Origin: an uncultured Gammaproteobacteria bacterium
Lineage (GTDB): Bacteria > Patescibacteriota > Patescibacteriia > UBA9570
Reading direction: 5' to 3'
Length of the DNA stretch: 64,000 bases
NCBI GenBank assembly: GCA_964385285.1
Contig: CAYLOJ010000002.1
Location: forward strand, 559 to 64,558
Shown: positions 8,490 to 34,025 of the stretch, one piece after another
Layout: the number at the start of each line of letters is the position of its first letter
Numbering within the stretch: the stretch's first letter is position 1
Notes under the pieces: model-generated
The model's input: the letters and a program-made list of their open reading frames with translations, nothing else
What the model was told of the DNA's origin: nothing
The model's database searches: none
Made by a program: the position numbers and the translations under genes

Positions 8490-8617
8490 TTCTTGAACTC
8501 TAGTTTCTACAGCGTAGTATTACGCTCTACAAACTAGGTGTGCTCCGAAATGAATCATTTCAGGAGCACCGGAGCGTTCCACCCATGTGGTCACGTTCCG
8601 TCCTCCTAGTGGGCCGA

Positions 8618-9295: not shown

Positions 9296-9419
9296 GGAAC
9301 CTCCGTTCCTGTTGAGGGTCGTTGCCTGAAAACGCGGATCATTTTTAGCTGACTTTGATGGAACTGTCAACGCTAACTGATGATCAAAATACCCAATTTT
9401 ACTATTGTAAAACCAAGCG

Positions 9420-9448
9420 TTGACAGTTTTTTAGCTCAGCACTATAAT
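9420..9448 (+). promoter_or_regulatory. Consensus sigma70 promoter (TTGACA-17-TATAAT) for tRNA-Asn
   Basis: TTGACA at 9420-9425, a 17-nt spacer, TATAAT at 9443-9448, about 32 nt upstream of the tRNA 5' end. Confidence 0.6.
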
Positions 9449-9480
9449 CACAGGCGTTCTTTGAGTAAAGAATAAACTAT

Positions 9481-9552
9481 TCAGGAGTAGCTCAGCGGTA
9501 GAGCAATACGCTGTTAACGTATGGGTCCTGGGTTCAAATCCCAGCTCCTGAG
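9481..9552 (+). tRNA. tRNA-Asn (anticodon GTT)
   Basis: Manual cloverleaf: acceptor TCAGGAG/CTCCTGA, D-arm GCTC-AGCGGTA-GAGC, anticodon stem ATACG/CGTAT with loop CTGTTAA, T-arm CTGGG-TTCAAAT-CCCAG, discriminator G. 72 nt with no encoded CCA. Confidence 0.9.
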
Positions 9553-9598
9553 CATAAATAAAATCACGCCCATCTGGGCGTGATTTTATTTGATTGTT
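9536..9598 (+). repeat. Direct repeat copy 1 (tRNA-Asn 3' end plus terminator; attL-like)
   Basis: aaatcccagctcctgagcataaataaaatcacgcccatctgggcgtgattttatttgattgttc is repeated at 10702-10767 with about 90% identity. Confidence 0.75.
9562..9591 (+). terminator. Rho-independent terminator of tRNA-Asn
   Basis: Hairpin AATCACGCCCA-tc-TGGGCGTGATT followed by TTTATTT. Confidence 0.7.
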
Positions 9599-9710
9599 CA
9601 AGTAGCTAAGGATTTGAAGGGTATCCGAAGAAAGTGCCGGTGGCACTTTGTGAGGAACCCAGGCCGTGAAGGAACTCTGAGCCGGCTTGCGGCGAAGAGT
9701 AGGTGAACGG

Positions 9711-9729
9711 AAATCCCAGCTCCTCAGGA
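9711..9729 (+). repeat. Third, degenerate partial copy of the tRNA-Asn 3' end (aaatcccagctcctcagga)
   Basis: Matches 16 of 19 nt of the tRNA acceptor/T-arm 3' segment. It lies between the two full repeats. Confidence 0.5.
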
Positions 9730-9801
9730 TATCACCCTACTGTTCTTTGAAGCATTGAGCATGATACACTGTAAACAATTTGATATTAGAAATGAATTCA
9801 A

Positions 9802-10689
9802 ATGAGCGATAAGTTAACACGTCAGAGTATATATTCTCAGATATCTCAGTCAATGCGATCTAGCTTTGAAGAATCAAGACAGCTGCCCCATCCAGGAGAA
9901 AAAGGTAGAGCTGCGGAGCTGGTTTTGCGTAACTTCTTATCAAAACATCTGCCAAAACGTTTTGAAGTTTGCTCAGGTTTTATTTTAGATAAAGAGGATA
10001 ATGTTTCTGGTCAAACAGATGTAATAATCTACGATTCTTTAAATTGCCCAGTCTATTCTGTTCATGATGACCTGAGAATTATTCCAAGTGATAACGTTGC
10101 TGCCGTAGTAGAAGTGAAGTCAACGCTCAGGAATCAAGATTTTAATGATGCAGCGACTAAGGCATCAGTAATAAAGCATTTAGTTAAAACACCTGAACAA
10201 CCATCTAAAGAGATGGTCTTAACCAATACTTATGTTTCTTTGTTTGCATTTGACAGCGACCTTCCAAAGGAGAAAGTATGCGAACTTCATGCCACTTCAG
10301 TAAATGGTCGTGGATTAACTTGGCATCTTGATTCTGTATGCATTCTAGATAAAGTAATTAGCTATACGTCTGTAGAAATCGAACAACAAACACAAGGTCC
10401 ACAACCCATGGAACTTTCAGCCTTGAATCCTGCTGTTACTCGAGATAGATTGACTAAATTTAGTATCAGCGCTGAAGAAAAGAACCAGGACAGTCTAGAA
10501 ATATGGTTGCGTTTACTGCTAGCACACTTATCATTCTTTCGACACCGCGTTGACCATCCTGGCTTTGATTGGGACCGTAGCACACTCACGTGCGTATCTT
10601 TATTTGATATGCCTAGACGAAACCCAGAACGGAATGATCCTTGCTATTGCCTATCAGGCAATAAGTGGAAGTACTGTCATGGCGCTTAG
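9802..10689 (+). CDS. PD-(D/E)xK nuclease-fold protein with a C-terminal SEC-C zinc-binding motif (cargo of the tRNA-flanked cassette)
   Basis: Nuclease-core motifs QTDVIIYD and AAVVEVKSTL (D...E-V-K). The C-terminus (RNDPCYCLSGNKWKYCHGA) matches the SEC-C CxC-x8-CH motif. Low GC (about 38%) and no SD sequence. Confidence 0.55.
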   Translation: MSDKLTRQSIYSQISQSMRSSFEESRQLPHPGEKGRAAELVLRNFLSKHLPKRFEVCSGFILDKEDNVSGQTDVIIYDSLNCPVYSVHDDLRIIPSDNVAAVVEVKSTLRNQDFNDAATKASVIKHLVKTPEQPSKEMVLTNTYVSLFAFDSDLPKEKVCELHATSVNGRGLTWHLDSVCILDKVISYTSVEIEQQTQGPQPMELSALNPAVTRDRLTKFSISAEEKNQDSLEIWLRLLLAHLSFFRHRVDHPGFDWDRSTLTCVSLFDMPRRNPERNDPCYCLSGNKWKYCHGA

Positions 10690-10701
10690 GCTTAAAACCT
10701 A

Positions 10702-10767
10702 AAATCCCAGCTCCTGAGCATAAATAAAATCGCGCCCAGACGGGCGTGATTTTATTTTATTGTTCCC
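10702..10767 (+). repeat. Direct repeat copy 2 (attR-like), including a second copy of the terminator hairpin
   Basis: aaatcccagctcctgagcataaataaaatcgcgcccagacgggcgtgattttattttattgttc. It begins 12 nt after the stop of CDS 9802-10689. Confidence 0.75.
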
Positions 10768-10848
10768 TTGCTGGGCAATGAACCTATTGCACCGCAAGCA
10801 GTGTTTCGACGTATTCACATAGCCAATGGGATAATGTAAAGGCCACCG

Positions 10849-10881
10849 GAAACATCGTCTCCGGTGGCCTTGCCGTGCCTC
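10849..10881 (-). terminator. Candidate terminator hairpin downstream of the GC-rich M23/MopE gene
   Basis: Perfect 12-bp stem AAGGCCACCGGA / TCCGGTGGCCTT with a 9-nt loop. The following U-tract on the minus strand is weak. Confidence 0.35.
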
Positions 10882-10945
10882 GCTTGGTCGACGCCTCGTC
10901 GCCGAGACGCCGACGCCTGTTGGGCACGGTGCCTACCTTCCCCCG

Positions 10946-13729
10946 CTACAGTCCGTTGCCGTAGCTGAAGCTCCAGCTGGCGCTGTTGCTGCAGGTCGAG
11001 CAGGTCCGCGGGATGCTGGTGTTGTTCAGCACGTAGAAGGTACCGCTACGCCGGACGATGATCTCGTCCTTACCGTCTCCGGTCAGGTCGGCGAAGTAGT
11101 AGTCGTCGCTGTCGCCATACCCGTAGGTGAAGTAGAAGTCGTCCCCGCCTTCGTGGGTCTGATCCACCGTGAAGAGGTTGCCCTCCCGGAAGGTCAGGTC
11201 GATCTCTCCGTCACCATTGAAGTCGGCCAGGTAGTAGTGCTGCGTACTGGTACCCCAACCGAAAGGGTAATACCACTCCTCGCCGCCCGCCGCGTTGTTG
11301 TCCACGACGAAGTAGCGAGTCGACCGCTGGATGGCCAAGGCGCCTCCGTTGCCGAAGTAGTGCCCAACATCACCGCTGACGCCGAAGTTGTAGGTGCGAT
11401 CCGTCTCTCCGTCCGCATCCTCGTCGAGGTAGAAGGTGCCGTAGCCGAACACCACCGCCACACCGTCGCCGGTGGAGAAGTAGGTTGCGCTGACACCATC
11501 ACCATAGGCGAAGACGTAGTCGCTGCTGCCGTCGAGGCCCTCATCGCAGAGGAGCATGTCCAGGCGCCGCAGGCACGGGTCGAGGATGCCGTCGTGGTCG
11601 GAGTCGATGAACAGGTACTGATCTTCCGGACCAGTCCAACTGTCGATCACCCACTCGTTGTTGTCCAAGGTGACACCGATCCCGTCGGAGTCATCATCCG
11701 GTTCGTAGTCGATCGCCTGGAAGCAGACGTTGTCGTTCGTGACCGTAGATTGGAGCTGGACCGATTGAGCCGCCTCGCTGAACCACAGCCCTTGGAAGGT
11801 GTCCGTGGCTGAGTCCAGTGTGAGGTCGTAGCACTCCAGCAGATCGCCCGTTGCGTAGGGGCCGCTGTAGCCACAGGCCGTCATCGGCTGTTCGAGACTG
11901 TACGTCACCAACCCCAGCGTGCTGAAGGTGTGGTCGAACGTCAGGGTCAACTGGGTCTGGTCGTGGCTGTTCGCCATGATGCAGGCATAGTTGCCCCAGG
12001 AGTACTGCATCCAATCTCCCTGGTTGAGGGACAGGATGAAGTGTCCGAAGTCCCAGCCACTGGGGATCAAGGTACCGCTCGCCGCTTCGTCAAAGTGTTC
12101 GCCGTCGAGATGATCCAGACCGGTTTCGGTCAAGAAGTCCTCGAAGTCGAGCTCAACTCCGCTCAGAGCGACCGAGTTGTTGTCGATGACGCCATCACAG
12201 TCGTTGTCGACGCCGTCGTACCACTCCCAGCTGTCCGGGTTGATGTTCGCATCGGTGTCGTCACAGTCACCATCGGCGACGCTGTCCCCATCGTTGTCGA
12301 GGTCATTGTCGTCCGCGGCGGCTGAATCCACATCGAGCGCGTCGTCGGTAATGCTGAACGCAGAGTAGATGCAGGTGAGCTGGGAGTTGTTGGTGATGGT
12401 TGCACTGCCCTCGCTCAGATCGTAGTAGACGACCCGTTGGTAGCCAGCGGCGTTGGTGCCGCTGAAGGTCTGCAGGTAGCGGTCTCCGTTCGCGCAGACA
12501 CCCCCCGTGGGGTAGCCGAAGTGCTTGGAGGCACCGTACTTCTCGTACTTGCGCGCGATGGCATAGGAAACGACGTCGTCCCAACCTCCGCTGGTGAACT
12601 CACCCGGTGCGAAGCCGCTCGGGTAGTCGAGCACGTCCACCGGATTCGCTCCGGTGTTGGTGTCGTCCGGGTGGTAGGTCACACGACAGTCCTGGAAATC
12701 CTGCACCCACTTGTGGCCCTTGCCGTAGACGTTGGTGATGGGATTGCCGCAGTACTGCGGATCATGGGACGTGGAGCCCTGCGGACCGTTGGTCTGCAAC
12801 CAGCCGGACCACTGCTGCGCTTGCACAACGTAGGCGTGGTTTGCACCGCCCCAATCGTCGAAGACGACGGCGCCAGTGCAGGAGCCCGTGTAGTCCTGGG
12901 TGTAGAGCGTGGTGTACTCGTAGTTGCCCGTGCGGCAATCCCGACAGGTTGAGGACTGGCTCGGCGTCTGGCCGCTGCTGTAGCCCCACCAGTGCAAGGT
13001 TCCATTGGCGCTGCTGATGCAGATGCCCGGACTCTCCTTGGTGCCCGTCGCCGAGTTCTTCCGCTTGTTGTGCTTGTTGTAGGTACCGAAGTCGGTAGTG
13101 AGAGCGGTGGAGATGAGAGTGGAGGTGGAGGTAGAACTACCAGGGAGAACCGGAGGACACTGAGTCCACAAGTTGTCATCTCCACACCCAGTATCTTCGT
13201 TGTAGATGTCGGGGTAGATTTCCTGAGTGGAATACAGGTCGTAGGGGTCAAGATTTTCACCGCACCCAGGCTGACCGTAGCTATCCTCACTGACTTCGTA
13301 GTGGAGGTGAAGATAGCCATTCGAAGCATTACCACTCTTGCCGGACATACCGAGATAATCACCCACACTGAAATACCCAGAGCTGAACTCGCAGCTCTCA
13401 AGGTGAGCATAGACAGTGTAGTAGGTGTGGGAGCCAGTAGCATAGCTACCCTTAGCGTACCAACCCCAACTGTCGCTCCAACCACACGTGTAGTTACCAT
13501 CATGGGAAGCGGTCACCTCGAAGGTCAACCACTGGCCAGAGGTCCCCTTGCGGTAATCAATGCCGCAATGGTTCGCGGTAGTATAGTCGTAGATCCAACC
13601 CTGCTGAACATAAACAGCAGCATCATTGGTCGGCAAGTACAGATAGTTCGGCGAATCGGCCTTGGCAGGCACAGTGAACAGGAACAGAGCCAAGATGCTC
13701 AGAACGAGGATGCGCAAAGAGCGTTCCAT
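10946..13729 (-). CDS. Secreted multidomain protein: N-terminal M23 (LytM) peptidase, Ser/Thr linker, MopE-like Cys/Asp repeats, C-terminal FG-GAP/VCBS-like repeats; GC-rich foreign gene
   Basis: Signal peptide MERSLRILVLSILALFLFTVPAKA with a GAGGT RBS. M23 motifs YYTVYAHLES...GMSGKSGNASNGYLHLHYEV. MopE-like DGDCDDTDANINPD and WYDGVDNDCDGVIDN. FG-GAP-like DFNGDGEIDL and DLTGDGKDEIIV. GC3 is very high, with shadow ORFs in all frames. Confidence 0.65.
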   Translation of the reverse strand: MERSLRILVLSILALFLFTVPAKADSPNYLYLPTNDAAVYVQQGWIYDYTTANHCGIDYRKGTSGQWLTFEVTASHDGNYTCGWSDSWGWYAKGSYATGSHTYYTVYAHLESCEFSSGYFSVGDYLGMSGKSGNASNGYLHLHYEVSEDSYGQPGCGENLDPYDLYSTQEIYPDIYNEDTGCGDDNLWTQCPPVLPGSSTSTSTLISTALTTDFGTYNKHNKRKNSATGTKESPGICISSANGTLHWWGYSSGQTPSQSSTCRDCRTGNYEYTTLYTQDYTGSCTGAVVFDDWGGANHAYVVQAQQWSGWLQTNGPQGSTSHDPQYCGNPITNVYGKGHKWVQDFQDCRVTYHPDDTNTGANPVDVLDYPSGFAPGEFTSGGWDDVVSYAIARKYEKYGASKHFGYPTGGVCANGDRYLQTFSGTNAAGYQRVVYYDLSEGSATITNNSQLTCIYSAFSITDDALDVDSAAADDNDLDNDGDSVADGDCDDTDANINPDSWEWYDGVDNDCDGVIDNNSVALSGVELDFEDFLTETGLDHLDGEHFDEAASGTLIPSGWDFGHFILSLNQGDWMQYSWGNYACIMANSHDQTQLTLTFDHTFSTLGLVTYSLEQPMTACGYSGPYATGDLLECYDLTLDSATDTFQGLWFSEAAQSVQLQSTVTNDNVCFQAIDYEPDDDSDGIGVTLDNNEWVIDSWTGPEDQYLFIDSDHDGILDPCLRRLDMLLCDEGLDGSSDYVFAYGDGVSATYFSTGDGVAVVFGYGTFYLDEDADGETDRTYNFGVSGDVGHYFGNGGALAIQRSTRYFVVDNNAAGGEEWYYPFGWGTSTQHYYLADFNGDGEIDLTFREGNLFTVDQTHEGGDDFYFTYGYGDSDDYYFADLTGDGKDEIIVRRSGTFYVLNNTSIPRTCSTCSNSASWSFSYGNGL

Positions 13730-13823
13730 GATGACCTCACAACAGATTGTAAAAGTACGTCCTAGCTAGGAGGATTCCTGAACTAGCCATACCAATCCAA
13801 TGGTTGGATTGGTAGTGGCCAAG

Positions 13824-14612
13824 TCAGGAATTGGTTTGAAATGTGTGCACAATATTTAATAAGTCATTTTGGTCATAATTGCCATTATTTGTTTCCATTG
13901 TAAAAACTACACTTTGGACTGGCTTACCCATGTTCGTTAATTCAGCATCCGGGAGCGGAATGTAAATATAGTGGTAATTTGAGTTGCCTTCCCAGCTTTT
14001 TTTCAGGTAAACATTAGTTGCTACAATATTGTTATCCAGTAGTGTTGTATCGCCAATTGTAAAAGCAAAACCTTGTTCACTAACTAAGTCAGAAACTTCA
14101 AGGTCAGAAACAGCAACTGAAATTAACTTACCTCTTGCAACTGATTCCATTACTCCTACTCCCATCACATCTGTTAGAGATTTGTAGTGATCAATTTCTG
14201 CAGTAATATCTGCGTTGTCAAGCGAAGTAGCAAATACTATATCTGTCGTATTGACCTGATATCGTGGGTTATCATATGATTTTTTATATTCTTCAAAGAT
14301 ATCGTTTGAAATTTGCCAGTCCTTTGGATACTTAAAACTAAATCCATATTTCTCATTTGTATATGTCTGCCAATCGGAAGTATCTAAATCTGAAACTTCA
14401 GTGTTGCTATTCTCGTTCAGATTGGTATTAGCAATGGCCTCGTTCACATTGTCATTCGCAGTGGTAGTATTTGTGACTGTGTTTGTATTGTTCACACTAG
14501 TATTCACCACTGCATTGGCATTGGTATTGGTCTTTGTATCAGTAACGCAGCCTGCGAGTGTGATGGCGCTCAAGGCTAGGGCTGGTAGTAGATAAGGTGG
14601 TTTGTATGTCAT
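13824..14612 (-). CDS. Lipoprotein with an N/T-rich low-complexity linker (hypothetical surface protein)
   Basis: Lipobox LALSAITLAGC. Linker TNTNANAVVNTSVNNTNTVTNTTTANDNVN. Globular C-terminal domain with no recognised family. Confidence 0.5.
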   Translation of the reverse strand: MTYKPPYLLPALALSAITLAGCVTDTKTNTNANAVVNTSVNNTNTVTNTTTANDNVNEAIANTNLNENSNTEVSDLDTSDWQTYTNEKYGFSFKYPKDWQISNDIFEEYKKSYDNPRYQVNTTDIVFATSLDNADITAEIDHYKSLTDVMGVGVMESVARGKLISVAVSDLEVSDLVSEQGFAFTIGDTTLLDNNIVATNVYLKKSWEGNSNYHYIYIPLPDAELTNMGKPVQSVVFTMETNNGNYDQNDLLNIVHTFQTNS

Positions 14613-16694: not shown

Positions 16695-17576
16695 GTGCAA
16701 AAAATCGTTACCCATTTATGGTTCGATACACAAGCTAAAGAAGCTGCGGCTTTTTATGTAGATCTCTTTGGTGGAGATTCTAAAATTAAGCACAGCTCCA
16801 AGCTACAGGGCACGCCGTCTGGTGATGTGGATTTACTAGCGTTCACCTTGCTGGGGCAGGATTTTATGGCCATTAGTGCAGGACCCTATTTCAAATTTAA
16901 TCCATCCATTTCATTTCATGTGAAATGTAAAACGGTAGAACAGGTAAACCAGATCTGGAGTAAATTATCACCCGGTGGAAAAGTATTAATGGAGTTAGGT
17001 AAGTACCCATTTAGTGAACGCTACGGTTGGGTAGAAGATCGTTATGGATTATCTTGGCAAATTATCCATTCCGGAGATCAGCCGATTACGCAAGCGATTG
17101 TGCCGGTGTTGATGTTTACGAATAACGTCTGCGGTAAAGCTAAACCTGCTATGGAGTTTTATACCTCAGTCTTTCACAACGCAAAGATTCACTTTACGGC
17201 TCCGTATGGTGTTGGCGCCGAACCCGATGCACCGGACAGTATTAAGTATGGCCATTTCAGTATGGAAGGCCAAGAGTTTGGTGCTATGGATAGCGCGCGG
17301 CAGCATGACTTCAATTTTAATGAAGCTATATCCTTTCTTGTGCGTTGTGATACCCAAGCCGAAATTGATTACTATTGGGAAAAATTGTCAGCCGTTCCTG
17401 AAGCGGAACAATGTGGTTGGCTAAAGGATCAATTTGGTGTGTCTTGGCAAATTTCACCGACAGTGATGGAAACAATGCTACAAACTACCGATCAGGCCAA
17501 GCTTGACCGGGTGACCAAGGCGTTTTTGCAAATGAAAAAATTTGATCTTGCCGCTTTGGAGCAATCCAGTCAGTAG
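16695..17576 (+). CDS. PhnB-like / 3-demethylubiquinone-9 3-methyltransferase-domain (VOC superfamily) protein, two tandem domains
   Basis: Two tandem ~140 aa PhnB-like (3-dmu-9_3-mt) domains: HLWFDTQAKEAAAFYVDLFGG... and PVLMFTNNVCGKAKPAMEFYTSVF... Confidence 0.5.
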   Translation: MQKIVTHLWFDTQAKEAAAFYVDLFGGDSKIKHSSKLQGTPSGDVDLLAFTLLGQDFMAISAGPYFKFNPSISFHVKCKTVEQVNQIWSKLSPGGKVLMELGKYPFSERYGWVEDRYGLSWQIIHSGDQPITQAIVPVLMFTNNVCGKAKPAMEFYTSVFHNAKIHFTAPYGVGAEPDAPDSIKYGHFSMEGQEFGAMDSARQHDFNFNEAISFLVRCDTQAEIDYYWEKLSAVPEAEQCGWLKDQFGVSWQISPTVMETMLQTTDQAKLDRVTKAFLQMKKFDLAALEQSSQ

Positions 17577-26762: not shown

Positions 26763-27740
26763 ATGCAAAAATTATTCAAACACCAAGGAAAATTGGCAAT
26801 CAGTTTGGCCTTGATGGCGATGCTATCCGTAGCCTTGCAGCCAGCCTTAGCTCGTAGCAATAACCCTACTACAGATAACAGTACCTCCATTGATACGGAT
26901 GGAGATGGCTATTATGACTGTGTTGAAAAGGGCCAATATCGTGATGATAGCGACAATGATGGGGTCGACGACTCTGAAGATGACACTACTGACGATCTGC
27001 AAAGTTCGGCGGACCATGACACTGATGGTATTCCAGACTATATTGAGAAGAGTGAATATCGTAACAATCATGATAATACCGGCAAGCATGACGCCGAAGA
27101 TCTAGATGACGATGATGATGGCATGCGTGATCGTAATGAAGCTGCTGCAGACAAGAAGGATCATGATAATAGCGGTAAGTCCGACAAAAAGGATCTAGAT
27201 GACGATGAAGATGGTACTGAAGATTTGAGTGAGGATTCTTGCGGCCAAGTATTGGATCATGATAATGATGACACGAAAGATCGTGTAGATAGTGATGATG
27301 ATAATGATGGTGTAGAGGATGACGAAGATGAACATTTGAATGATCACGATAACGATGGATCAGACGATAAAGAAGATGGCGATGATGATGCAGATGGAAT
27401 TGAAGACAGTGAGGATACTCATCAGTACGATCATGATAACGATGGAACTGATGACAACCGTGATTCGTCAGATGATTCAGAAGATAATGTGGAAGCCGTC
27501 GAGGTGGAGATCGATAATTCTGAATTTAGCCCAACCGATTTGACAATCCAAGTAGGCGATATGGTTACCTTTACCAATAAGGATAATATGGTGCACACGG
27601 CTAGCGCAGTTGATGGAACCTTTACGACTGGCGATTTATCTGAAGATGAATCCTACACAGTGACCTTTGATGAGGCCGGTACCTATGACTACTACTGCGT
27701 CTATCATCCATCCATGACTGGGACGATCACGGTAGAGTAG
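26763..27740 (+). CDS. Secreted protein with 11 DxDxDG-type Asp-rich Ca-binding-like repeats and a C-terminal type-1 copper (amicyanin/plastocyanin-like) cupredoxin domain
   Basis: Signal peptide MQKLFKHQGKLAISLALMAMLSVALQPALA. Repeats DTDGDGYYD, DHDTDGIPD, DHDNDGSDD, DHDNDGTDD and others. The C-terminus MVHTASAV...YDYYCVYHPSMTGTITVE carries the His...C-x2-H-x2-M ligand set. Confidence 0.55.
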   Translation: MQKLFKHQGKLAISLALMAMLSVALQPALARSNNPTTDNSTSIDTDGDGYYDCVEKGQYRDDSDNDGVDDSEDDTTDDLQSSADHDTDGIPDYIEKSEYRNNHDNTGKHDAEDLDDDDDGMRDRNEAAADKKDHDNSGKSDKKDLDDDEDGTEDLSEDSCGQVLDHDNDDTKDRVDSDDDNDGVEDDEDEHLNDHDNDGSDDKEDGDDDADGIEDSEDTHQYDHDNDGTDDNRDSSDDSEDNVEAVEVEIDNSEFSPTDLTIQVGDMVTFTNKDNMVHTASAVDGTFTTGDLSEDESYTVTFDEAGTYDYYCVYHPSMTGTITVE

Positions 27741-27832
27741 TAGTGACTTTTCCACACCCCTCGTCAAAAACCTTCAAGAAACCCAATAAATAGTGTATAG
27801 TAGAGCAAATTTATTAAACTAACAGAACTGTT

Positions 27833-28117
27833 ATGGCCAAACCAATGACCAAAAGCCAATTCATGGCTGCAATGGCTGACAAAGCCGGTTTAAGTAAGAA
27901 GCAAGTTGCCACCATGTGGGATATGCTCGTGGACCTCGTCTACAAGCAAACCAAAGATGCTGGTGAATGCACTCTTCCAGGCTTAGGCAAAATGCAAAAG
28001 AAACATCGCGCTGCTCGTATGGGCCGCAACCCAGCTACTGGTGCTCAAATTCAGATCCCAGCCAAAACTGTTCTGAAATTCCGCGTTGCCAAGCAAGCTA
28101 AAGACGCAATCTTGTAA
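27833..28117 (+). CDS. hup: HU/IHF family DNA-binding protein
   Basis: 94 aa. FMAAMADKAGLSKKQVATMWDMLVDLV...GLGKM...RAARMGRNPATGAQIQIPAKTVLKFRVAK matches the HU arm-region motif RxGRNPxTG. Confidence 0.8.
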   Translation: MAKPMTKSQFMAAMADKAGLSKKQVATMWDMLVDLVYKQTKDAGECTLPGLGKMQKKHRAARMGRNPATGAQIQIPAKTVLKFRVAKQAKDAIL

Positions 28118-28142
28118 GATCAGCGTTTTATCACAGAAATTC

Positions 28143-28180
28143 GTAGAGACGTTGTTCGCAACGTCTCTACTTTTGTATTT
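28143..28180 (+). terminator. Rho-independent terminator (12-bp perfect stem, T-tract) after hup; member of the TAGAGACG hairpin family
   Basis: GTAGAGACGTTG-ttcg-CAACGTCTCTAC followed by TTTTGTATTT. Confidence 0.75.
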
Positions 28181-28249
28181 AGACCGATTTCAGCTTGTCT
28201 ATTCAACCCAATGTTTGTATACTAGGAACGTTATTCTTAATGCCAATCT

Positions 28250-28747
28250 ATGCAAAGTTTTCGTTATCGTTTAATTGCTAGTTCTGCTGTCATCGTATTG
28301 ATGGCCACGGGATGCGCAACTAATAGTTCTACAGTCACAACCAACGTGAATACTGCTACTGTGAACACGAATACTGTAAATCCTGCAGGGGAAACCACTT
28401 TGAGTGGTAGTGCGGATGCCAATGTGAATGATACTCCAACAGCAACTGCAGATGATGACACCACAGTGAATACCACGAAAACATTTGACGTTGTAGCTAG
28501 TCAATTTTCCTTTAGTCCAAGTACGGTTACTGTGAATCAAGGTGATACCGTAGTCATCAACCTAACTACGGAAGACGTTCCCCATGGCTTTTCCTTGCCA
28601 GATTTCGATATCAACGAGACGATTACTCCAGGCAAAACAACTACGGTAGAGTTTGTGGCTGATCAAACAGGCAGCTTCTCCTTTTCCTGTTCAGTGGCTT
28701 GTGGCGCTGGCCACAGTAGTATGCGGGGTACACTGGTCGTCAATTAA
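28250..28747 (+). CDS. Cupredoxin-fold lipoprotein with a CuA-like binuclear copper motif (CoxII-like domain)
   Basis: Lipobox LMATGC, an N/T-rich linker, then VPHGFSLPDF...FSCSVACGAGHSSMRG, which gives H...C-x3-C-G-x2-H-x2-M as in the cytochrome oxidase subunit II / N2O reductase CuA site. Confidence 0.5.
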   Translation: MQSFRYRLIASSAVIVLMATGCATNSSTVTTNVNTATVNTNTVNPAGETTLSGSADANVNDTPTATADDDTTVNTTKTFDVVASQFSFSPSTVTVNQGDTVVINLTTEDVPHGFSLPDFDINETITPGKTTTVEFVADQTGSFSFSCSVACGAGHSSMRGTLVVN

Positions 28748-28789: not shown

Positions 28790-29362
28790 ATGCGTACAAC
28801 AACCTCGTTAGCTGCTCTGTTGCTCTCCACTGTCGTAGTGGCCGGCTGCATGGGTGGTTCAGACAATGTTAACCGCCCAGCTCGTACCTCTGGTACGAAC
28901 GATACCAACAGTGTGGCCGTTAAGGACTATGCCGTTGGGGAAGAAGCTCCAGCCGGTGATATCGTCCACAAAGTAGTCTCCGTTGAACAGATGGATGTAA
29001 TTCCATCTTCAGCGACCTTACCAGAATGGGAGATCATTGCTGAAGAAACTCCAGCGGATGAAGGCTTTACATGGCTCCATATTAAAGGTGAAGTGACCAA
29101 CAACAGTAAAGAAACTCAGACCGTTAGTACTAACGGAGTCTATGTGATGGATGCTGATGAAAACCAATTTGAGGTTTCCACAGACACCACGATTTATGTA
29201 GATAGTGATTCCTCACCTGTCTACATCAGTTTGCAGCCCACTCAAACCGTTGACTGGGAAGGTTATTTTGAAGTGCCTAAGGCAGCGACTGGCTTAGTTC
29301 TCGTAGGGAACGATCTTTCGTTCTTACCAGAAAGCGAAGTCCATATCGACTTAGGATTGTAA
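28790..29362 (+). CDS. Hypothetical lipoprotein
   Basis: Lipobox VVVAGC. 190 aa. No recognised domain. Confidence 0.4.
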   Translation: MRTTTSLAALLLSTVVVAGCMGGSDNVNRPARTSGTNDTNSVAVKDYAVGEEAPAGDIVHKVVSVEQMDVIPSSATLPEWEIIAEETPADEGFTWLHIKGEVTNNSKETQTVSTNGVYVMDADENQFEVSTDTTIYVDSDSSPVYISLQPTQTVDWEGYFEVPKAATGLVLVGNDLSFLPESEVHIDLGL

Positions 29363-31039: not shown

Positions 31040-31232
31040 AGACCCTGGTTTATCCTAAGCCATACCTTTACAACTTTTAGGGGAATCCGGTTAGAATCCG
31101 GAGCTGTGCCGCAACCGTATGTCTGAATGTTAGACGAGCCGGGATACCTCTTATCGTGTATGTTCTCGAGCAAGGACAGACGATCGATGTATCCTCATCT
31201 GTTGTCGTCCTGCTCTCAGCAGGATTTTTTTA
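31040..31232 (+). ncRNA. Cobalamin (B12) riboswitch with a terminator expression platform
   Basis: Core AGGGGAATCCGGTTAGAATCCGGAGCTGTGCCGCAACCGTATG is close to the E. coli btuB leader core (AGGGAATCCAGTGCGAATCTGGAGCTGACGCGCAGCGGTAAGG, as recalled). It is followed by terminator TCCTGCT-ctc-AGCAGGA + TTTTTTT at 31208-31231, 22 nt before the start of CDS 31253. Confidence 0.7.
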
Positions 31233-31252
31233 TTCTCTATCCAAAAGCCGAC

Positions 31253-31879
31253 ATGCTAAAACGCCTCATCACAATTTATCTCCCTATGCTGGTTGTGATT
31301 AGCGTTGCGTTCATCGCTGGCCGCCAATTGTATTACGATAATGATGTCACGTTGGATGATGTAGCATTCGTGGAATCATCGAATACTCTAAATAGCAATG
31401 CAAATGTAGTGCAGCCTGCTGATGAATCATTAAATACAGAGCAGATACCGGAAGATGCAGTACTTGTAAACACTGAAACTGTAGTTGCACCGGTAGATGC
31501 TGTAGAGACTGAGCCAGTCAAGGAGATTGTGGAGCCAGTAGCGGTGACTGAGCCAGAAGCAGAGGTGGTGACACAGAATGTGGTTGTCACGATCAGTGGA
31601 CCGGGGATCACTAAACGTTGTGTGGTGACATACACAGATGATTTATCTGTACATCAGTTGATGCAGCAAGCGAGTCAACAGTGCAATTTTGCTTACCGCG
31701 TTAAAGATTATACCTCTCTCGGTGCGTTTGTGGATGAGCTGGGTGGTGTGACTTCGAGTCGCAAAGAGGGGAGATACTGGATTTACTACGTGAATGGCAA
31801 AAAAGCAAACGTCGGTGTGTCGTCCTATACAGTGGCGCCGGACGATCTGGTGGCCTGGGTGTATGAGCAAGAATATTAA
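31253..31879 (+). CDS. DUF4430 (transcobalamin-like) domain protein, membrane-anchored; putative B12-binding surface protein
   Basis: N-terminal TM (MLKRLITIYLPMLVVISVAFIAG). C-terminus GAFVDELGGVTSSRKEGRYWIYYVNGKKANVGVSSYTVAPDDLVAWVY matches the DUF4430 signature (YW-Y-VNG ... GD-V-W-Y). Lies directly downstream of the B12 riboswitch. Confidence 0.6.
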   Translation: MLKRLITIYLPMLVVISVAFIAGRQLYYDNDVTLDDVAFVESSNTLNSNANVVQPADESLNTEQIPEDAVLVNTETVVAPVDAVETEPVKEIVEPVAVTEPEAEVVTQNVVVTISGPGITKRCVVTYTDDLSVHQLMQQASQQCNFAYRVKDYTSLGAFVDELGGVTSSRKEGRYWIYYVNGKKANVGVSSYTVAPDDLVAWVYEQEY

Positions 31880-31897: not shown

Positions 31898-33433
31898 GTG
31901 TATTTTATGAAACGTTATTTACTCAGCCTGCTCATGTTCGTAGTCGCTAGTCCGGCTGCGGCTAGTAGTTATATTCAAACTAATCTGCGCGTTGAGACTG
32001 CCGACGAGACAGTGTATGCCGGTGATGTCTACATCAGTTCCGATGGTTGCGCAGTACGCGACACAGATGGCGTGAAACATCAGATTGATGGTGCTGCAGC
32101 CGTCTGTGCGTTAAAAGCGGCTGCAACGCTAGGTGGCTTTGAGTATGCATTGCAAGATTCCAGTTACGGTTTATACCTAACGAGTGTGGATGGTCATGCT
32201 GCCACGAGTGCCGACTATTGGTCCTTCTTTGTGAACTATACCGTCGCTTCAACCGGCTTAACCGATTACACTTTGAGTAATGGTGACAATGTGATTTTGT
32301 CATTAGGCGGGTATCCCAATAATGCTTTAGAATTAAAAGTGCCTAGTAAACAAGTATTGGTCAATGAAAAATTGGTAGTGCGGGTGAAATCTAATGGTGA
32401 ACCGGTCAGTGGGGCAACGGTCCATTTTGGAGATGTGACGACGCAGACTGATAGTTTAGGAAAGGCTCGCTATACACCAACCGATACCACAAATGGTTTG
32501 GAGGTGTATGCTACTGCAGACGGAGCTACGCGTACTCCGACTGCAAGTATTCGTGTGATGCGCCGCTATACAGAGAATACTAGAGTGAACGTTGCTAATC
32601 AGCAGACGATGTTAACAGCAGCCGCAGATTTTTTACTGGCTCGTGTCGATGCCGATGGCATGATCTCGGGTAGTCAGAGTGTGACCGATTGGACAGCAAT
32701 TGCGTTTGCCAATGCAGGCATTACGGTTCCCGCAGCTATGCAAACTGCGGTCTTAGCTTACGATCCAACCATTGAGGTTGCCTATGCGACCAATGAAATC
32801 GCGCGTCATATTTTGGCTGTTGAAGCATTGGGCTATGATGCGACCGATCAAAACGGCGTCAATTATGTAGCCCGCTTGCTCAATACAAAGGCGCACGGTC
32901 AATTTGGTGATACTGCCTACGTCAATGATGATCTCTACGCTGGCTTAGCGCTATTGGCCGCTGGTGTTGCCAGTGATGATGCGGATGTATTGCGTGCTGT
33001 CACTGCTGCCAAAGACAGTCTGAATAGTGACGGTGGATTATCCTATGCTGTGGCGTTAGACGAAAGTGATAATGATACCACTGCCATTTTTGTACAGTTG
33101 CTTAGTAACATCGGTGATAATTCTAAGGCGTATCGCCAGGCAGTGCAGTATCTGCTCGATCAGCAAAACTATGATGGGGGTTGGGGCTACGATAATCATG
33201 GATTATCTAACTCCTCAAGCACAGCGGTAGTCTTACAGGCCTTGCATGCAGCTGGGTATACGCCTAATAAAGTACGCAGTAATCACCGCACAGGTTACAA
33301 CTTCTTAGCCTCGATCCAAAATAGTAATGGAGCTTTTGATTATGACGTGCTCGGCTCGTATAGTTACAAGACCTTAAATTCTGAAGCCGCCATTTTGGCC
33401 CTGGCCCACGCTTGGCTAGGTATGGTAGACTAA
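31898..33433 (+). CDS. Secreted protein: N-terminal DUF4430-like domain, CarboxypepD_reg-like domain, C-terminal prenyltransferase/squalene-oxidase-like alpha-alpha toroid repeats
   Basis: Signal peptide. The N-terminal block ending SADYWSFFVNYTVASTGLTDYTLSNGDNVILSLGGY is DUF4430-like. QW-type repeats (QQNYDGGWGYDNHGLSNSSSTAVVLQALHAAGY) are typical of the prenyltransferase-like toroid. Confidence 0.5.
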   Translation: MYFMKRYLLSLLMFVVASPAAASSYIQTNLRVETADETVYAGDVYISSDGCAVRDTDGVKHQIDGAAAVCALKAAATLGGFEYALQDSSYGLYLTSVDGHAATSADYWSFFVNYTVASTGLTDYTLSNGDNVILSLGGYPNNALELKVPSKQVLVNEKLVVRVKSNGEPVSGATVHFGDVTTQTDSLGKARYTPTDTTNGLEVYATADGATRTPTASIRVMRRYTENTRVNVANQQTMLTAAADFLLARVDADGMISGSQSVTDWTAIAFANAGITVPAAMQTAVLAYDPTIEVAYATNEIARHILAVEALGYDATDQNGVNYVARLLNTKAHGQFGDTAYVNDDLYAGLALLAAGVASDDADVLRAVTAAKDSLNSDGGLSYAVALDESDNDTTAIFVQLLSNIGDNSKAYRQAVQYLLDQQNYDGGWGYDNHGLSNSSSTAVVLQALHAAGYTPNKVRSNHRTGYNFLASIQNSNGAFDYDVLGSYSYKTLNSEAAILALAHAWLGMVD

Positions 33434-33437
33434 ACCT

Positions 33438-34025
33438 ATGATTCACACTCCAAAAGATTTCAAACACTTAGTTGGCCAACTTCCTGGCATGACTGATCGT
33501 CAAGTGGAAACCCATTTAGGCTTATATGCGGGTTATGTTAAGAAGCTCAATGAAATTCAGGACAAGCTCAAGACGGTTGATCCAGCCGATAGTAACTATA
33601 GCTTTGGTGCGTTTTCCGAATTAAAACGTCGTGAAACGGTTGCTTTCAATGGTTCTTATCTCCACCAAGCATATTTCGAAAACATGACGCCGGCTAAAAC
33701 CGAAGTATTATCAAGCTTTCATGCTGCAATTGAGCAGAGTTGGGGTACTTGGGATAAGTTCGTGGCTGATATCAAGGGTTCAGCAGCTTCAACTCCAGGC
33801 TGGGTGATTTTGACGAAGAATCAAGTAGATGGATTGCTGCACACCTATATCATGTATGAGCATCATGTAGGCTTTCCAGTCCACAATAACGTTATCATGG
33901 CGTTAGATTGTTGGGAACATGCCTTTGCCATCGATTATGGTACTGATAAAGCCAAATACGTGGAAAATTTCTTGAGTGTGGTCGATTGGAATATTGTCGC
34001 TGAACGGTTTGCTGCACTGAAGTAG
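33438..34025 (+). CDS. sod: Fe/Mn superoxide dismutase
   Basis: VAFNGSYLHQAYFENM and DCWEHAFAIDYG are the classic Fe/Mn-SOD metal-ligand motifs. 195 aa. Confidence 0.85.
   Translation: MIHTPKDFKHLVGQLPGMTDRQVETHLGLYAGYVKKLNEIQDKLKTVDPADSNYSFGAFSELKRRETVAFNGSYLHQAYFENMTPAKTEVLSSFHAAIEQSWGTWDKFVADIKGSAASTPGWVILTKNQVDGLLHTYIMYEHHVGFPVHNNVIMALDCWEHAFAIDYGTDKAKYVENFLSVVDWNIVAERFAALK

What the first reader, a model, noticed from the sequence alone, without database searches (positions are those of the whole stretch)
26763..28747. Two adjacent secreted copper-site cupredoxins: an amicyanin-like type-1 Cu domain fused to 11 DxDxDG Ca-binding-like repeats, and a lipoprotein with a CuA-type binuclear motif
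CDS 26763 ends in ...YDYYCVYHPSMTGTITV, which gives the His/Cys/His/Met type-1 ligand spacing. It is preceded by 11 repeats of the DxDxDGxxD type, as in thrombospondin type-3 or EF-hand-like loops.

CDS 28250 carries H...C-x3-C-G-x2-H-x2-M (FSCSVACGAGHSSMRG), the spacing of the CuA centre of cytochrome oxidase subunit II and N2O reductase. It is a stand-alone lipoprotein with no oxidase subunit I in the window.

Redox-active copper proteins are unexpected in a reduced, presumably fermentative genome. They may act in extracellular electron transfer, copper handling or oxidative-stress defence. A Fe/Mn SOD is encoded 5 kb downstream.
Basis: partly seen in the sequence, partly recalled or inferred. 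Interest (0 to 1): 0.6.

Follow-up and report, generated by a model that had tools for sequence, protein, structure and literature searches.

The report
Orphan surface copper proteins, tiny bacterium
An ultra-small groundwater-type bacterium (Candidate Phyla Radiation) that has no respiratory oxidase nearby encodes two exported copper electron-carrier proteins, one of the "blue copper" type on a calcium-binding acidic stalk and one a stand-alone lipid-anchored version of the two-copper CuA centre; both identifications hold up, but their redox partners and their job remain unknown.

Summary
Both observations are confirmed. P1 (26763-27740, 325 aa) has a signal peptide, a 34%-Asp region with 9 strict plus 2 relaxed DxDxDG loops, and an amicyanin-like type-1 cupredoxin (H278/C312/H315/M318). 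P2 (28250-28747, 165 aa) is a lipoprotein with a 53-residue Thr/Asn linker and a canonical CuA domain (H112/C147/C151/H155/M158). Those five P2 residues are invariant in 42 homologues. The P2 model overlays the Thermus ba3 CuA domain at about 1 Å.

The two genes are not an operon. An HU gene, a strong terminator hairpin and a promoter-like site separate them. Even so, the order T1 cupredoxin, HU, CuA recurs in every Kerfeldbacteria-like relative examined.

P2 is neither a subunit II nor a NosZ. It belongs to a large family of short stand-alone CuA lipoproteins (about 1,030 clusters at E ≤ 1e-30) found in CPR bacteria and DPANN archaea. That family was reported in DPANN as "nosZ-like", function unknown. 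No oxidase subunit I lies near any of about 110 family loci. Recurrent neighbours are DsbA-like thioredoxins, DoxX, VIT1, YHS/P-type ATPases, Fe/Mn SOD and occasional membrane electron conduits.

Most likely these are extracytoplasmic one-electron carriers serving envelope redox or metal-stress chemistry rather than respiration.

The parts
26763..27740 (+). P1: secreted type-1 (blue) copper protein, 325 aa
   Evidence: ORF and translation. Pfam Cupredoxin_1 and Copper-bind. Orthologues share the same architecture.
26763..26855 (+). P1 signal peptide (about residues 1-31, ...LQPALA|RS)
   Evidence: Hydrophobic N-terminus is modelled as a helix at residues 7-21. LQPxxA is conserved in orthologues. 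The cleavage site is inferred.
26856..27488 (+). P1 acidic region, 34% Asp: 9 strict plus 2 relaxed DxDxDG loops and two conserved Cys (C53, C160)
   Evidence: Motif list. Shuffle test: 9 observed against 0.57 expected, 0 of 20,000 shuffles reach 9. No DNA tandem repeat. Orthologues carry 7-13 motifs and exactly 3 Cys. No Pfam family at E ≤ 10. pLDDT below 50.
27489..27737 (+). P1 amicyanin-like cupredoxin domain; ligands H278, C312, H315, M318
   Evidence: pLDDT 97-98. Foldseek top hits are amicyanins at rmsd 1.3-1.5 Å. NCBIfam amicyanin 4e-14, below the equivalog cut-off.
27833..28117 (+). Intervening HU-family DNA-binding protein gene; not part of the copper system
   Evidence: Pfam Bac_DNA_binding 2.9e-26. 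It sits at the same place in relatives.
28143..28170 (+). Terminator-like hairpin (12-bp stem plus T-run) after HU
28195..28223 (+). Promoter-like site (TTGTCT-17-TATACT) ahead of P2
   Evidence: This is a consensus match only.
28250..28747 (+). P2: stand-alone CuA-type cupredoxin lipoprotein, 165 aa
28250..28315 (+). P2 Sec-type signal peptide with lipobox-like LMATGC22
   Evidence: Sequence. GAGC/AGC is conserved at this position in homologues. 117 of 144 family representatives have a lipobox-like N-terminus.
28316..28474 (+). P2 Thr/Asn-rich 53-residue linker, predicted disordered
   Evidence: Composition. pLDDT 54-62. Length and sequence vary among homologues.
28475..28744 (+). P2 CuA domain; ligands H112, C147, C151, H155, M158, with the V149 backbone position
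   Evidence: Ungapped alignment to Thermus ba3 subunit II. pLDDT 93-98. rmsd 0.9-1.0 Å to 2cua and 6pty. Invariant columns.
28790..29362 (+). DUF4352 lipoprotein, 43 bp downstream of P2; possibly co-transcribed
   Evidence: Pfam DUF4352. Same position in Kerfeldbacteria-like loci.
33438..34025 (+). Fe/Mn superoxide dismutase; conserved synteny partner about 5 kb downstream
   Evidence: Pfam Sod_Fe_C. Same position in relatives. SOD lies within 6 kb of CuA-family genes in 9 lineages.

Best explanation
P1 and P2 are two exported, copper-loaded one-electron carriers that work outside the cytoplasmic membrane of a Kerfeldbacteria-like CPR bacterium.

P2 is Sec-exported and lipid-anchored through Cys22. 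A flexible 53-residue Thr/Asn linker holds it away from the membrane. It ends in a canonical binuclear CuA cupredoxin domain.

P1 is secreted. It carries an amicyanin-like type-1 copper domain on a roughly 200-residue acidic stalk made of EF-hand/TSP3-like DxDxDG loops. The stalk probably binds Ca2+, is stapled by one disulfide, and keeps the protein at the cell envelope.

Neither protein is a subunit of a haem-copper oxidase or of N2O reductase. P2 belongs to a large family of stand-alone CuA lipoproteins found in CPR bacteria, DPANN archaea and some other lineages.

The most likely role is to shuttle single electrons between an envelope or membrane donor and an extracytoplasmic acceptor. That would serve redox maintenance of the cell surface: thiol/disulfide chemistry, reactive-oxygen handling and metal redox handling. 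It would not be energy-conserving respiration.

Shown: fold, ligand sets, export signals, family size, conserved synteny and neighbourhood statistics. Inferred: copper occupancy, Ca2+ binding, P1-P2 electron exchange, and the identity of donor and acceptor.
For: Identity
- Pfam hits for both proteins.
- Ungapped alignment of P2 to Thermus CuA with all ligands in register.
- Models with domain pLDDT above 93.
- Foldseek: P2 against 2cua/6pty at rmsd 0.9-1.0 Å; P1 against amicyanin at 1.3-1.5 Å.
- Ligands invariant in 42 of 42 P2 homologues. The type-1 ligand motif is present in all 8 locus-encoded Kerfeldbacteria-like P1 orthologues.
- The aromatic residue aligned with Thermus Phe88 is F, W or Y in all 42 family members. 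Phe88 as the cytochrome c electron-entry site is my own knowledge.

Not a subunit II or a NosZ
- No oxidase subunit I was found in the 64-kb window. None was found among the large membrane proteins tested next to family genes.
- Scores are far below the CoxB and NosZ cut-offs.
- Subunit I is nearly absent from Patescibacteria and absent from DPANN (PMC7507113).

Family size and form
- 1,030 representatives at E ≤ 1e-30.
- Of 144 new top representatives, 142 have the full CuA motif and 117 have a lipobox-like N-terminus. Median length is 178 aa.

Electron-transfer context in richer genomes
- NapH-like FeS membrane protein, cytochrome b, multihaem protein and a T1 cupredoxin (L027).
- NapH-like Fer4_5 domain fused to CuA (L033).
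- RnfD-like, with or without FMN_bind (L039, L078).
- Ferric_reduct-Rieske (L041).
- These are the transmembrane conduits catalogued for extracytosolic electron transfer (PMC8238504).

Envelope-redox and stress context, over 107 loci in 87 lineages
- DsbA-like: 11 loci, 10 lineages.
- DoxX immediately downstream: 8 loci, 6 lineages.
- SOD: 9 lineages within 6 kb.
- VIT1: 11 loci.

T1-CuA pairing
- Found in all Kerfeldbacteria-like loci that cover the region.
- Found once in an unrelated archaeal MAG (L027).
Against: - No donor or acceptor is identifiable in this window. There is no DsbA, DoxX, NapH-like, Rnf-like, quinone or cytochrome gene.
- P1, HU and P2 look like separate transcription units. 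The whole 20-kb region is syntenic among relatives. The conserved proximity of P1 and P2 may therefore be plain synteny.
- Neighbourhood associations each cover only about 5-10% of family loci. Many contigs are short: only 68 of 107 have at least 2.5 kb on one side.
- Copper-export genes also recur nearby, which fits a copper-handling role equally well.
- Two distant P1 relatives, P0065 and P0066, keep the architecture but lack the Cys ligand.
- Copper binding, Ca2+ binding and redox activity are untested.
- A DPANN homologue did not complement a P. aeruginosa nosZ mutant (PMC10936187). This only excludes one function.
Confidence: 0.5

Rival explanations
1. Copper buffering or resistance. P1 and P2 sequester Cu(I)/Cu(II) in the cell envelope, or hand it to exporters, as CopI- or CusF-type periplasmic proteins do. 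Their redox capacity would be incidental.
For: Family members sit next to copper-handling genes:
- cusC/cusB-like genes (OEP; HlyD with a heavy-metal-binding domain) and a 1,230-aa putative pump in an Omnitrophota MAG (L032).
- HMA (CopZ-like) plus a P-type ATPase (L047).
- YHS-domain proteins in 8 loci (6 lineages) and P-type ATPases in 7 lineages within 6 kb.

P2 gives a weak NCBIfam hit to CopI, 1.2e-5.
Against: - P2 keeps the complete, exactly spaced CuA ligand set and a backbone about 1 Å from a true electron-transfer CuA domain. That degree of conservation is more than simple chelation would seem to need.
- The CopI hit covers only residues 65-118 and scores 25 bits against a cut-off of 280.
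- No copper exporter, CopZ or CsoR/CueR was found in this window.
- Copper-gene neighbours occur in a minority of loci.
Confidence: 0.22
2. Cryptic respiratory subunit. P2 is the electron-entry subunit, and P1 its donor, for a terminal oxidase, NO reductase or N2O reductase whose catalytic subunit lies elsewhere in the genome or is too divergent to recognise.
For: - The best sequence and structure matches are ba3 oxidase subunit II and the NosZ CuA domains.
- Cupredoxins are natural donors to such enzymes.
- Some Patescibacteria carry NirK with a single-domain 'plastocyanin' (PMC12931201), and some carry cytochrome o oxidase (PMC12577380).
- Only 64 kb of the source genome could be inspected, out of a contig of 132,960 bp.
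Against: - P2 has a lipid anchor and a 53-residue flexible linker, not the transmembrane helices that dock subunit II onto subunit I.
- Subunits I and II are normally adjacent (my own knowledge). No PF00115 protein was found in the window or among the large membrane proteins tested next to family genes.
- Subunit I occurs in only 3 of 492 Patescibacteria single-cell genomes and in no DPANN genome.
- The DPANN 'nosZ-like' gene did not complement a ΔnosZ mutant and lacks CuZ.
- Scores are far below the CoxB and NosZ equivalog cut-offs.
Confidence: 0.1
3. Surface attachment or structural proteins. The Ca2+-binding acidic stalk (P1) and the long linker (P2) display cupredoxin (Ig-like) domains that mainly mediate adhesion to a host cell or a mineral. 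The copper sites would be secondary.
For: - The acidic DxDxDG module is shared with other secreted Patescibacteria proteins carrying DUF5666.
- Distant relatives P0065 and P0066 keep fn3, acidic repeats and a cupredoxin fold but have lost the Cys, His and Met ligands.
- The surrounding genes encode surface proteins and type IV pili.
Against: - Copper ligands are invariant in P2 homologues and present in all eight Kerfeldbacteria-like P1 orthologues.
- The family's neighbours are redox and metal genes, not adhesins.
Confidence: 0.06

Closest known systems
'nosZ-like' CuA-only proteins of DPANN archaea (Zhang et al., mBio 2024, PMC10936187)
   Same: - Short, exported, single CuA cupredoxin with C-x3-C-x3-H.
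- No CuZ domain and no other respiratory genes.
- Best profile hit is the CuA end of Sec-type NosZ.
- The P2 domain is 49-60% identical to Woesearchaeota and Micrarchaeota homologues, against 36-38% to Thermus CuA.
   Different: - P2 is bacterial (CPR, Kerfeldbacteria-like) and lipid-anchored.
- In its lineage it is always found near a type-1 cupredoxin with an acidic stalk.
- The published work reported the proteins only from oxygen-deficient-zone DPANN and proposed N2O reduction. The family found here is much wider, and its neighbourhoods point to thiol, metal and oxidative-stress genes.
[quoted passage not shown]
   Same: - Same fold at rmsd 0.9-1.0 Å.
- Ungapped alignment over 89-90 residues.
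- Identical ligand set and DVxHGF motif.
   Different: - No transmembrane helix and no partner subunit I.
- A lipobox and a long linker instead.
- 57 bits against the CoxB cut-off of 147.7.
Amicyanin (Paracoccus; 1AAJ, 1ID2)
   Same: - Ligand loop C-x2-H-x2-M.
- ...EAGTYDYxC..HP.M.G...VE is nearly identical (the amicyanin sequence is quoted from my own knowledge).
- rmsd 1.3-1.5 Å and 34-37% identity.
   Different: - 52.7 bits against the equivalog cut-off of 110.
- No methylamine dehydrogenase genes in the window.
- Fused to a roughly 200-residue acidic DxDxDG region that amicyanin lacks.
PmoD/AmoD of methane and ammonia oxidisers (PMC6189053)
   Same: A cupredoxin outside oxidase and N2O reductase that can form a CuA-type centre, with unknown physiological role.
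   Different: - PmoD builds its site across a homodimer interface from an unusual ligand set and has a C-terminal membrane helix.
- P2 has the full canonical intradomain ligand set and an N-terminal lipid anchor.
EF-hand and thrombospondin type-3 DxDxDG calcium loops
   Same: Ten loops fit D-x-[DN]-x-[DNST]-G-x-x-[DE]-x-x-[DE], the positions that coordinate Ca2+ in such loops (the coordination rule is my own knowledge). Two conserved Cys are present, as in disulfide-stapled TSP3 repeats.
   Different: - No Pfam family matches at E ≤ 10.
- PDB sequence hits to EF-hand proteins are not significant, E 0.07-0.5.
- AlphaFold gives no confident structure for the region.

Membership tests
Cupredoxin fold (Pfam PF13473 / PF00127) | Profile score above the gathering threshold and a Greek-key beta-sandwich | tested here: met
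   P1 scores 42.7 and 35.7 bits (cut-offs 27 and 21.2). P2 scores 51.2 bits (cut-off 27). Both domains are all-beta models with pLDDT above 93.
Type-1 (blue) copper site | His ... Cys-x(n)-His-x(n)-Met ligand set, conserved in orthologues | tested here: met
   H278, C312, H315, M318. The ligand motif is present in all 8 locus-encoded Kerfeldbacteria-like orthologues. It is lost only in P0061 (His to Tyr) and in the distant relatives P0065/P0066.
Amicyanin (NCBIfam TIGR02657 equivalog) | Score above the equivalog cut-off | tested here: not met
   52.7 bits against a cut-off of 110.2.
Amicyanin (functional definition) | Encoded with methylamine dehydrogenase (mau) genes | tested here: not met
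   No mau or MADH genes among the Pfam-scanned ORFs of the window.
CuA centre (COX2 periplasmic domain, PF00116) | H ... C-x3-C-x3-H-x2-M ligand set in a cupredoxin, with profile score above gathering | tested here: met
   39.2 bits against a cut-off of 22. Ligands are in register with Thermus H114/C149/C153/H157/M160 (the numbering is my own knowledge). They are invariant in 42 sequences. rmsd 0.9-1.0 Å.
CuA centre | Actually binds two Cu as a mixed-valence pair | not testable with these tools
   Requires UV-vis and EPR on the reconstituted protein.
Cytochrome c oxidase subunit II (CoxB, TIGR02866) | Equivalog score, N-terminal transmembrane helix or helices, and a gene next to subunit I | tested here: not met
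   57.2 bits against 147.7. The N-terminus is a lipoprotein signal followed by a disordered linker. No PF00115 in the window or next to relatives.
Nitrous-oxide reductase NosZ (TIGR04246 / TIGR04244) | Seven-bladed propeller with CuZ histidines plus a C-terminal CuA domain | tested here: not met
   Only profile positions 473-576 of 578 match, at 67 bits against a cut-off of 625. The protein is 165 aa.
Stand-alone CuA lipoproteins ('DPANN nosZ-like' family) | Short exported single-domain protein with a complete CuA motif, no CuZ and no oxidase genes nearby | tested here: met
   The description of the family is in PMC10936187.
Bacterial lipoprotein | Signal peptide ending in a lipobox with an invariant Cys | tested here: met
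   LMATG-C22 fits the PROSITE-style rule. GAGC/AGC is conserved in homologues. This is a pattern match only. Lipidation itself is not testable here.
Thrombospondin type-3 / EF-hand repeat families | Match to the family profile | tested here: not met
   No Pfam hit at E ≤ 10. PDB hits to EF-hand proteins have E 0.07-0.5. Only the loop motif is shared.
PmoD/AmoD | CuA-like site formed at a homodimer interface, a C-terminal membrane helix, and pmo/amo context | tested here: not met
   P2 has the full intradomain ligand set, ends at the cupredoxin domain, and has no pmo/amo genes nearby.

The most novel reading that the evidence does not exclude
The stand-alone CuA lipoprotein, paired in Kerfeldbacteria with a Ca2+-tethered blue copper protein, is the core of a copper-only extracytoplasmic electron sink in organisms that lack quinones, cytochromes and respiratory oxidases. 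One version: it takes the place of DsbB/VKOR plus quinone and re-oxidises DsbA-like and DoxX/MauE-like thiol oxidoreductases. Another version: it passes fermentative or stress-derived electrons to O2, superoxide, Fe/Cu ions or the host cell surface. Either way it would be the first natural single-domain canonical CuA protein with a function outside oxidase and N2O reductase.
Probability: 0.15. Interest if true: 0.8.

Novelty: new member of a known kind. Interest (0 to 1): 0.5.

Why it matters
CuA centres are textbook components of only a few respiratory enzymes. Here a canonical CuA domain exists as an autonomous lipoprotein in a bacterium from a group that almost never has such enzymes.

The family is large, about a thousand 50%-identity clusters. 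It is shared between CPR bacteria and DPANN archaea, the two radiations of ultra-small, presumed fermentative symbionts.

The published DPANN work left the function open after an N2O-reductase test failed. Two results from this analysis turn that open question into concrete experiments:
- The Kerfeldbacteria arrangement supplies a candidate redox partner, the type-1 cupredoxin.
- The neighbourhood survey supplies candidate pathways: DsbA-like/DoxX thiol oxidation, SOD, VIT1/YHS/P-type ATPase metal handling, and NapH-, Rnf- and MsrQ-like conduits.

If these proteins prove to be an envelope redox system, the picture of CPR and DPANN as organisms without extracytoplasmic electron transfer would need qualifying. 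It would also help explain their tolerance of oxic groundwater.

Tried and rejected
- **Reaching the rest of the source contig.** Exact-protein look-ups of MurJ, the 1,479-aa protein and P2 all returned 'not on record'. The genome-wide absence of oxidase subunit I, Sco, NirK or DsbA therefore could not be tested.
- **Genome scan with the full 42-sequence alignment.** A trimmed alignment worked.
- **AFDB50 fold search.** The library was unavailable.
- **TSP_3 / EF-hand membership of the acidic region.** No Pfam hit at E ≤ 10. Only non-significant EF-hand hits in the PDB. No DNA-level tandem repeat. AlphaFold gave no confident model.
- **P1-HU-P2 as an operon.** Rejected because of the terminator-like hairpin and promoter-like site between HU and P2.
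- **P2 as oxidase subunit II or NosZ.** Rejected on profile cut-offs, architecture and context.
- **Large membrane proteins near family genes as hidden subunit I.** They turned out to be transporters, an acyltransferase, or RnfD/NapH-like proteins.
- **The Pfam '3-demethylubiquinone methyltransferase' hit at 16695-17576.** The protein also hits the Glyoxalase superfamily. From my own knowledge this family is a glyoxalase/PhnB-type fold, so I did not take it as evidence for quinone synthesis.
- **Literature.** Searches for a prior description of CuA-type proteins in CPR found none. They found only 'plastocyanin' with NirK in some Patescibacteria and the DPANN report.


Full report
**1. What is in the sequence**

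The stretch 26763-28747 holds three plus-strand genes, not two.

P1 (26763-27740, 325 aa) starts with a hydrophobic signal sequence (...LQPALA|RS). The next roughly 210 residues are 34% Asp, and the protein ends in ...TYDYYCVYHPSMTGTITVE. An HU-family gene follows at 27833-28117 (Pfam 2.9e-26).

P2 (28250-28747, 165 aa) begins MQSFRYRLIASSAVIVLMATGC. It continues with a 53-residue Thr/Asn-rich segment and ends ...DVPHGF...FSCSVACGAGHSSMRGTLVVN.

A 12-bp-stem hairpin with a T-run (28143-28170) and a promoter-like site (28195-28223) lie between HU and P2. P1, HU and P2 are therefore probably separate transcripts. A DUF4352 lipoprotein gene follows P2 after 43 bp.

**2.

Shuffling the same residues gives 0.57 strict motifs on average. 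None of 20,000 shuffles reached 9.

Ten loops fit the full 12-residue pattern D-x-[DN]-x-[DNST]-G-x-x-[DE]-x-x-[DE]. These are the positions that coordinate Ca2+ in EF-hand-type loops (my own knowledge).

There is no DNA-level tandem repeat. The repeats are therefore old and maintained at protein level. Eight orthologues carry 7-13 such motifs and exactly three Cys, two in the acidic region plus the copper ligand.

No Pfam repeat family matches even at E ≤ 10. PDB sequence hits to EF-hand proteins are not significant. 'Ca-binding-like' is thus a motif-level statement only.

**3. Identity of the two copper domains**

| | P1 | P2 |
|---|---|---|
| Pfam | Cupredoxin_1 6e-11, Copper-bind 1.2e-8 | Cupredoxin_1 1.3e-13, COX2 7.5e-10 |
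| Model confidence | pLDDT 97-98 over residues 243-325 | pLDDT 93-98 over residues 75-165 |
| Best structural match | amicyanins, rmsd 1.3-1.5 Å, 34-37% identity | Thermus CuA domains 2cua/6pty, rmsd 0.9-1.0 Å over 90 columns, 36-38% identity; then NosZ CuA domains |
| Ligands | H278, C312, H315, M318 | H112, C147, C151, H155, M158 |

For P1, the best NCBIfam model is amicyanin, but at 52.7 bits against an equivalog cut-off of 110. The ligand motif is present in all eight locus-encoded Kerfeldbacteria-like orthologues. Among the database homologues, P0061 has Tyr in place of the second His, and the distant relatives P0065/P0066 have lost the Cys, the second His and the Met.

For P2, phmmer against the PDB gives the Thermus ba3 subunit II / CuA domain at 1e-15 to 1e-16. 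The alignment is ungapped over 89 residues and pairs every ligand. H112, C147, C151, H155 and M158, together with D109 and G113, are invariant in 42 homologues.

**4. What P2 is not**

NCBIfam scores are far below the cut-offs for CoxB (57 against 148) and for NosZ (67 against 625, matching only the last 100 profile positions).

P2 has a lipoprotein signal and a disordered linker where subunit II has transmembrane helices.

Pfam scans of essentially every ORF of at least 90 aa in the 64-kb window found no subunit I, Sco, CopZ/HMA or cytochrome. Motif scans found no CxxCH-rich or FeS protein.

**5. Organism and synteny**

Named homologues are from Candidatus Kerfeldbacteria, within Patescibacteria/CPR.

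The order HtrA, hypothetical, T1 cupredoxin, (Spo0M), HU, CuA, DUF4352..., M23, DUF4430, toroid protein, SOD, histidine kinase, response regulator, type IV pilus genes is conserved in relatives.

Every Kerfeldbacteria-like locus that covers the region has both an acidic-stalk T1 cupredoxin and the CuA protein. These loci are L001, L002, L004/L008, L009, L010, L011, L042 and L043. Because the whole region is syntenic, this alone does not prove a functional link.

One unrelated archaeal MAG (L027) also places a T1 cupredoxin beside two CuA paralogues. They lie within a cluster that also encodes a NapH-like polyferredoxin, a cytochrome b-like protein and a multihaem protein.

**6. The family**

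A genome scan found 31 loci:
- Kerfeldbacteria, 70-72% identity;
- Microgenomates;
- many DPANN archaea (Woesearchaeota, Micrarchaeota), 49-60% identity;
- scattered others.

An exhaustive profile search of 1.84 billion representatives gave 24,871 hits at E ≤ 1e-3 and 1,030 at E ≤ 1e-30. Of the 144 new top representatives, 142 have H...C-x3-C-x3-H-x2-M and 117 have a lipobox-like N-terminus. Their median length is 178 aa.

This protein type has been described. Zhang et al. (PMC10936187) found a 'nosZ-like' CuA-only protein in 21 of 33 DPANN MAGs from oxygen-deficient zones. It had no CuZ and no other respiratory genes, was predicted to be extracellular, and did not complement a P. aeruginosa ΔnosZ mutant.

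Beam et al. (PMC7507113) found subunit I in 3 of 492 Patescibacteria single-cell genomes and in no DPANN genome. I found no paper describing the CuA type in CPR. Single-domain 'plastocyanins' in Patescibacteria have been proposed as donors to NirK (PMC12931201).

**7. Gene neighbourhoods across the family**

I combined genome and metagenome loci. This gave 107 loci with a CuA ORF, falling into 87 lineages at 70% identity. Only 68 of them have at least 2.5 kb on one side. I clustered the neighbours and annotated cluster representatives with Pfam.

Recurrent neighbours:

| Neighbour | Loci | Lineages | Note |
|---|---|---|---|
| DsbA-like thioredoxin | 11 | 10 | |
| DoxX/MauE-like membrane protein | 8 | 6 | immediately downstream, often overlapping |
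| VIT1 Fe/Mn transporter | 11 | 6 | |
| YHS-domain protein | 8 | 6 | within 6 kb |
| Fe/Mn SOD | 9 | 9 | within 6 kb; directly adjacent in four |
| P-type ATPase | 7 | 7 | within 6 kb; once with an HMA CopZ-like gene |

A cassette DsbA-like, unknown-170, CuA, DoxX, unknown-147 recurs.

Single lineages add membrane electron conduits:
- RnfD-like, with or without FMN_bind;
- Ferric_reduct-Rieske;
- NapH-like Fer4_5 fused to CuA.

These are the conduit types catalogued for extracytosolic electron transfer, some of them with VIT1 and some in CPR (PMC8238504). One Omnitrophota member sits in a cusCBA-like cluster.

None of the large membrane proteins tested is a subunit I.

**8. Interpretation**

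The secure part is this. P1 is a secreted amicyanin-like type-1 cupredoxin on a DxDxDG acidic stalk. P2 is a lipid-anchored stand-alone canonical CuA cupredoxin. Both belong to conserved families, and there is no associated oxidase or reductase.

The inferred part is that they act as one-electron carriers in the cell envelope.

In favour of electron transfer over mere chelation:
- the strict conservation of the complete CuA site;
- the aromatic residue aligned with the Thermus electron-entry Phe88, which is F, W or Y throughout the family (the role of Phe88 is my own knowledge);
- the electron-transfer clusters found in richer genomes.

The DsbA/DoxX/SOD/VIT1 associations point to envelope redox and stress chemistry rather than energy conservation.

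The copper-export associations keep a copper-handling role alive as the main rival.

In this particular window no donor or acceptor is visible, so the mechanism remains a hypothesis.

**9. Verdict**

The finding is real and correctly read. It is a new, bacterial member of a recently noticed but functionally unexplained protein kind, with a lineage-specific partner (P1) and an unusual fusion architecture. Interest is moderate. It is not categorically new, but it gives concrete handles on an open question.

Noticed in passing
window 31081-31148 (+), with genes 31127-31879 and 31898-33433: A cobalamin riboswitch (Rfam RF00174, 38 bits, above gathering) lies just upstream of a DUF4430 protein. Next comes a DUF4430 plus alpha/alpha-toroid (prenyltransferase/SQHop-cyclase-like) protein. 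This may be a riboswitch-controlled surface B12-capture pair. The two genes are conserved at the same place in relatives.
   Followed up: partly
window about 8000-14000, tRNA at 9481-9552: A GC-rich island (0.51-0.55, against about 0.45 elsewhere) lies around a tRNA gene. It encodes a 249-aa protein (8618-9370, minus strand) with four Cu-binding_MopE 'putative metal-binding' motifs (2.1e-28), a 926-aa M23-peptidase protein with one such motif, and a DUF6602/SEC-C protein. It is probably acquired DNA. Whether the MopE-type motifs bind copper is unknown.
   Followed up: partly
L027 3387-8040 (Nitrososphaerales MAG ETNP2_MAG_84): A compact cluster of two CuA-type cupredoxins with membrane helices, a 469-aa Cys-rich NapH/NosH-like polytopic protein, a T1 cupredoxin, a cytochrome b-like membrane protein and a multihaem c-type protein. 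It resembles a nos-accessory electron-transfer module without a NosZ catalytic domain.
   Followed up: partly
L033 3372-5108; L035 6643-8583; L034: In Desulfobacteraceae and Syntrophobacterales MAGs, a small CuA protein sits next to a 580-650-aa protein with 11-12 membrane helices, a Fer4_5 (NapH-like) domain and its own C-terminal CuA motif (CTQTCGNLHPFM). A CxxCH-containing protein lies nearby. This is a membrane FeS-CuA fusion.
   Followed up: partly
P0091, P0092, P0093 (representative library): Multi-domain relatives with 3, 9 and 5 tandem cupredoxin stretches in 382, 1,166 and 669 aa. P0092 and P0093 lack the CuA motif altogether.
   Followed up: no
L046, L047, L049, L056, L105 and others: A recurrent cassette: DsbA-like, unknown 170-aa, CuA, DoxX, unknown 147-aa protein. 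In L047 it is preceded by HMA (CopZ-like), a P-type ATPase and a MarR-type regulator. The two unknown proteins have no Pfam family.
   Followed up: partly
window 6188-7747 (+): The ThyX (Thy1) homologue is 519 aa with two matched stretches, about twice the usual length (the usual length is my own knowledge). It may be a tandem-duplicated flavin-dependent thymidylate synthase.
   Followed up: no
L007 10001-10891 and 12763-13800 (Kerfeldbacteria GCA_016207285.1); L018 10529-12043: Two T1-cupredoxin paralogues flank an aldehyde dehydrogenase gene in L007. An aldehyde dehydrogenase also lies about 260 bp from the CuA gene in a Woesearchaeota locus, L018. This may be coincidence.
   Followed up: no
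P0065, P0066: Distant relatives of P1 with fn3, acidic DxDxDG repeats and a cupredoxin fold, but without the Cys, His and Met copper ligands. The architecture survives loss of the metal site.
   Followed up: no
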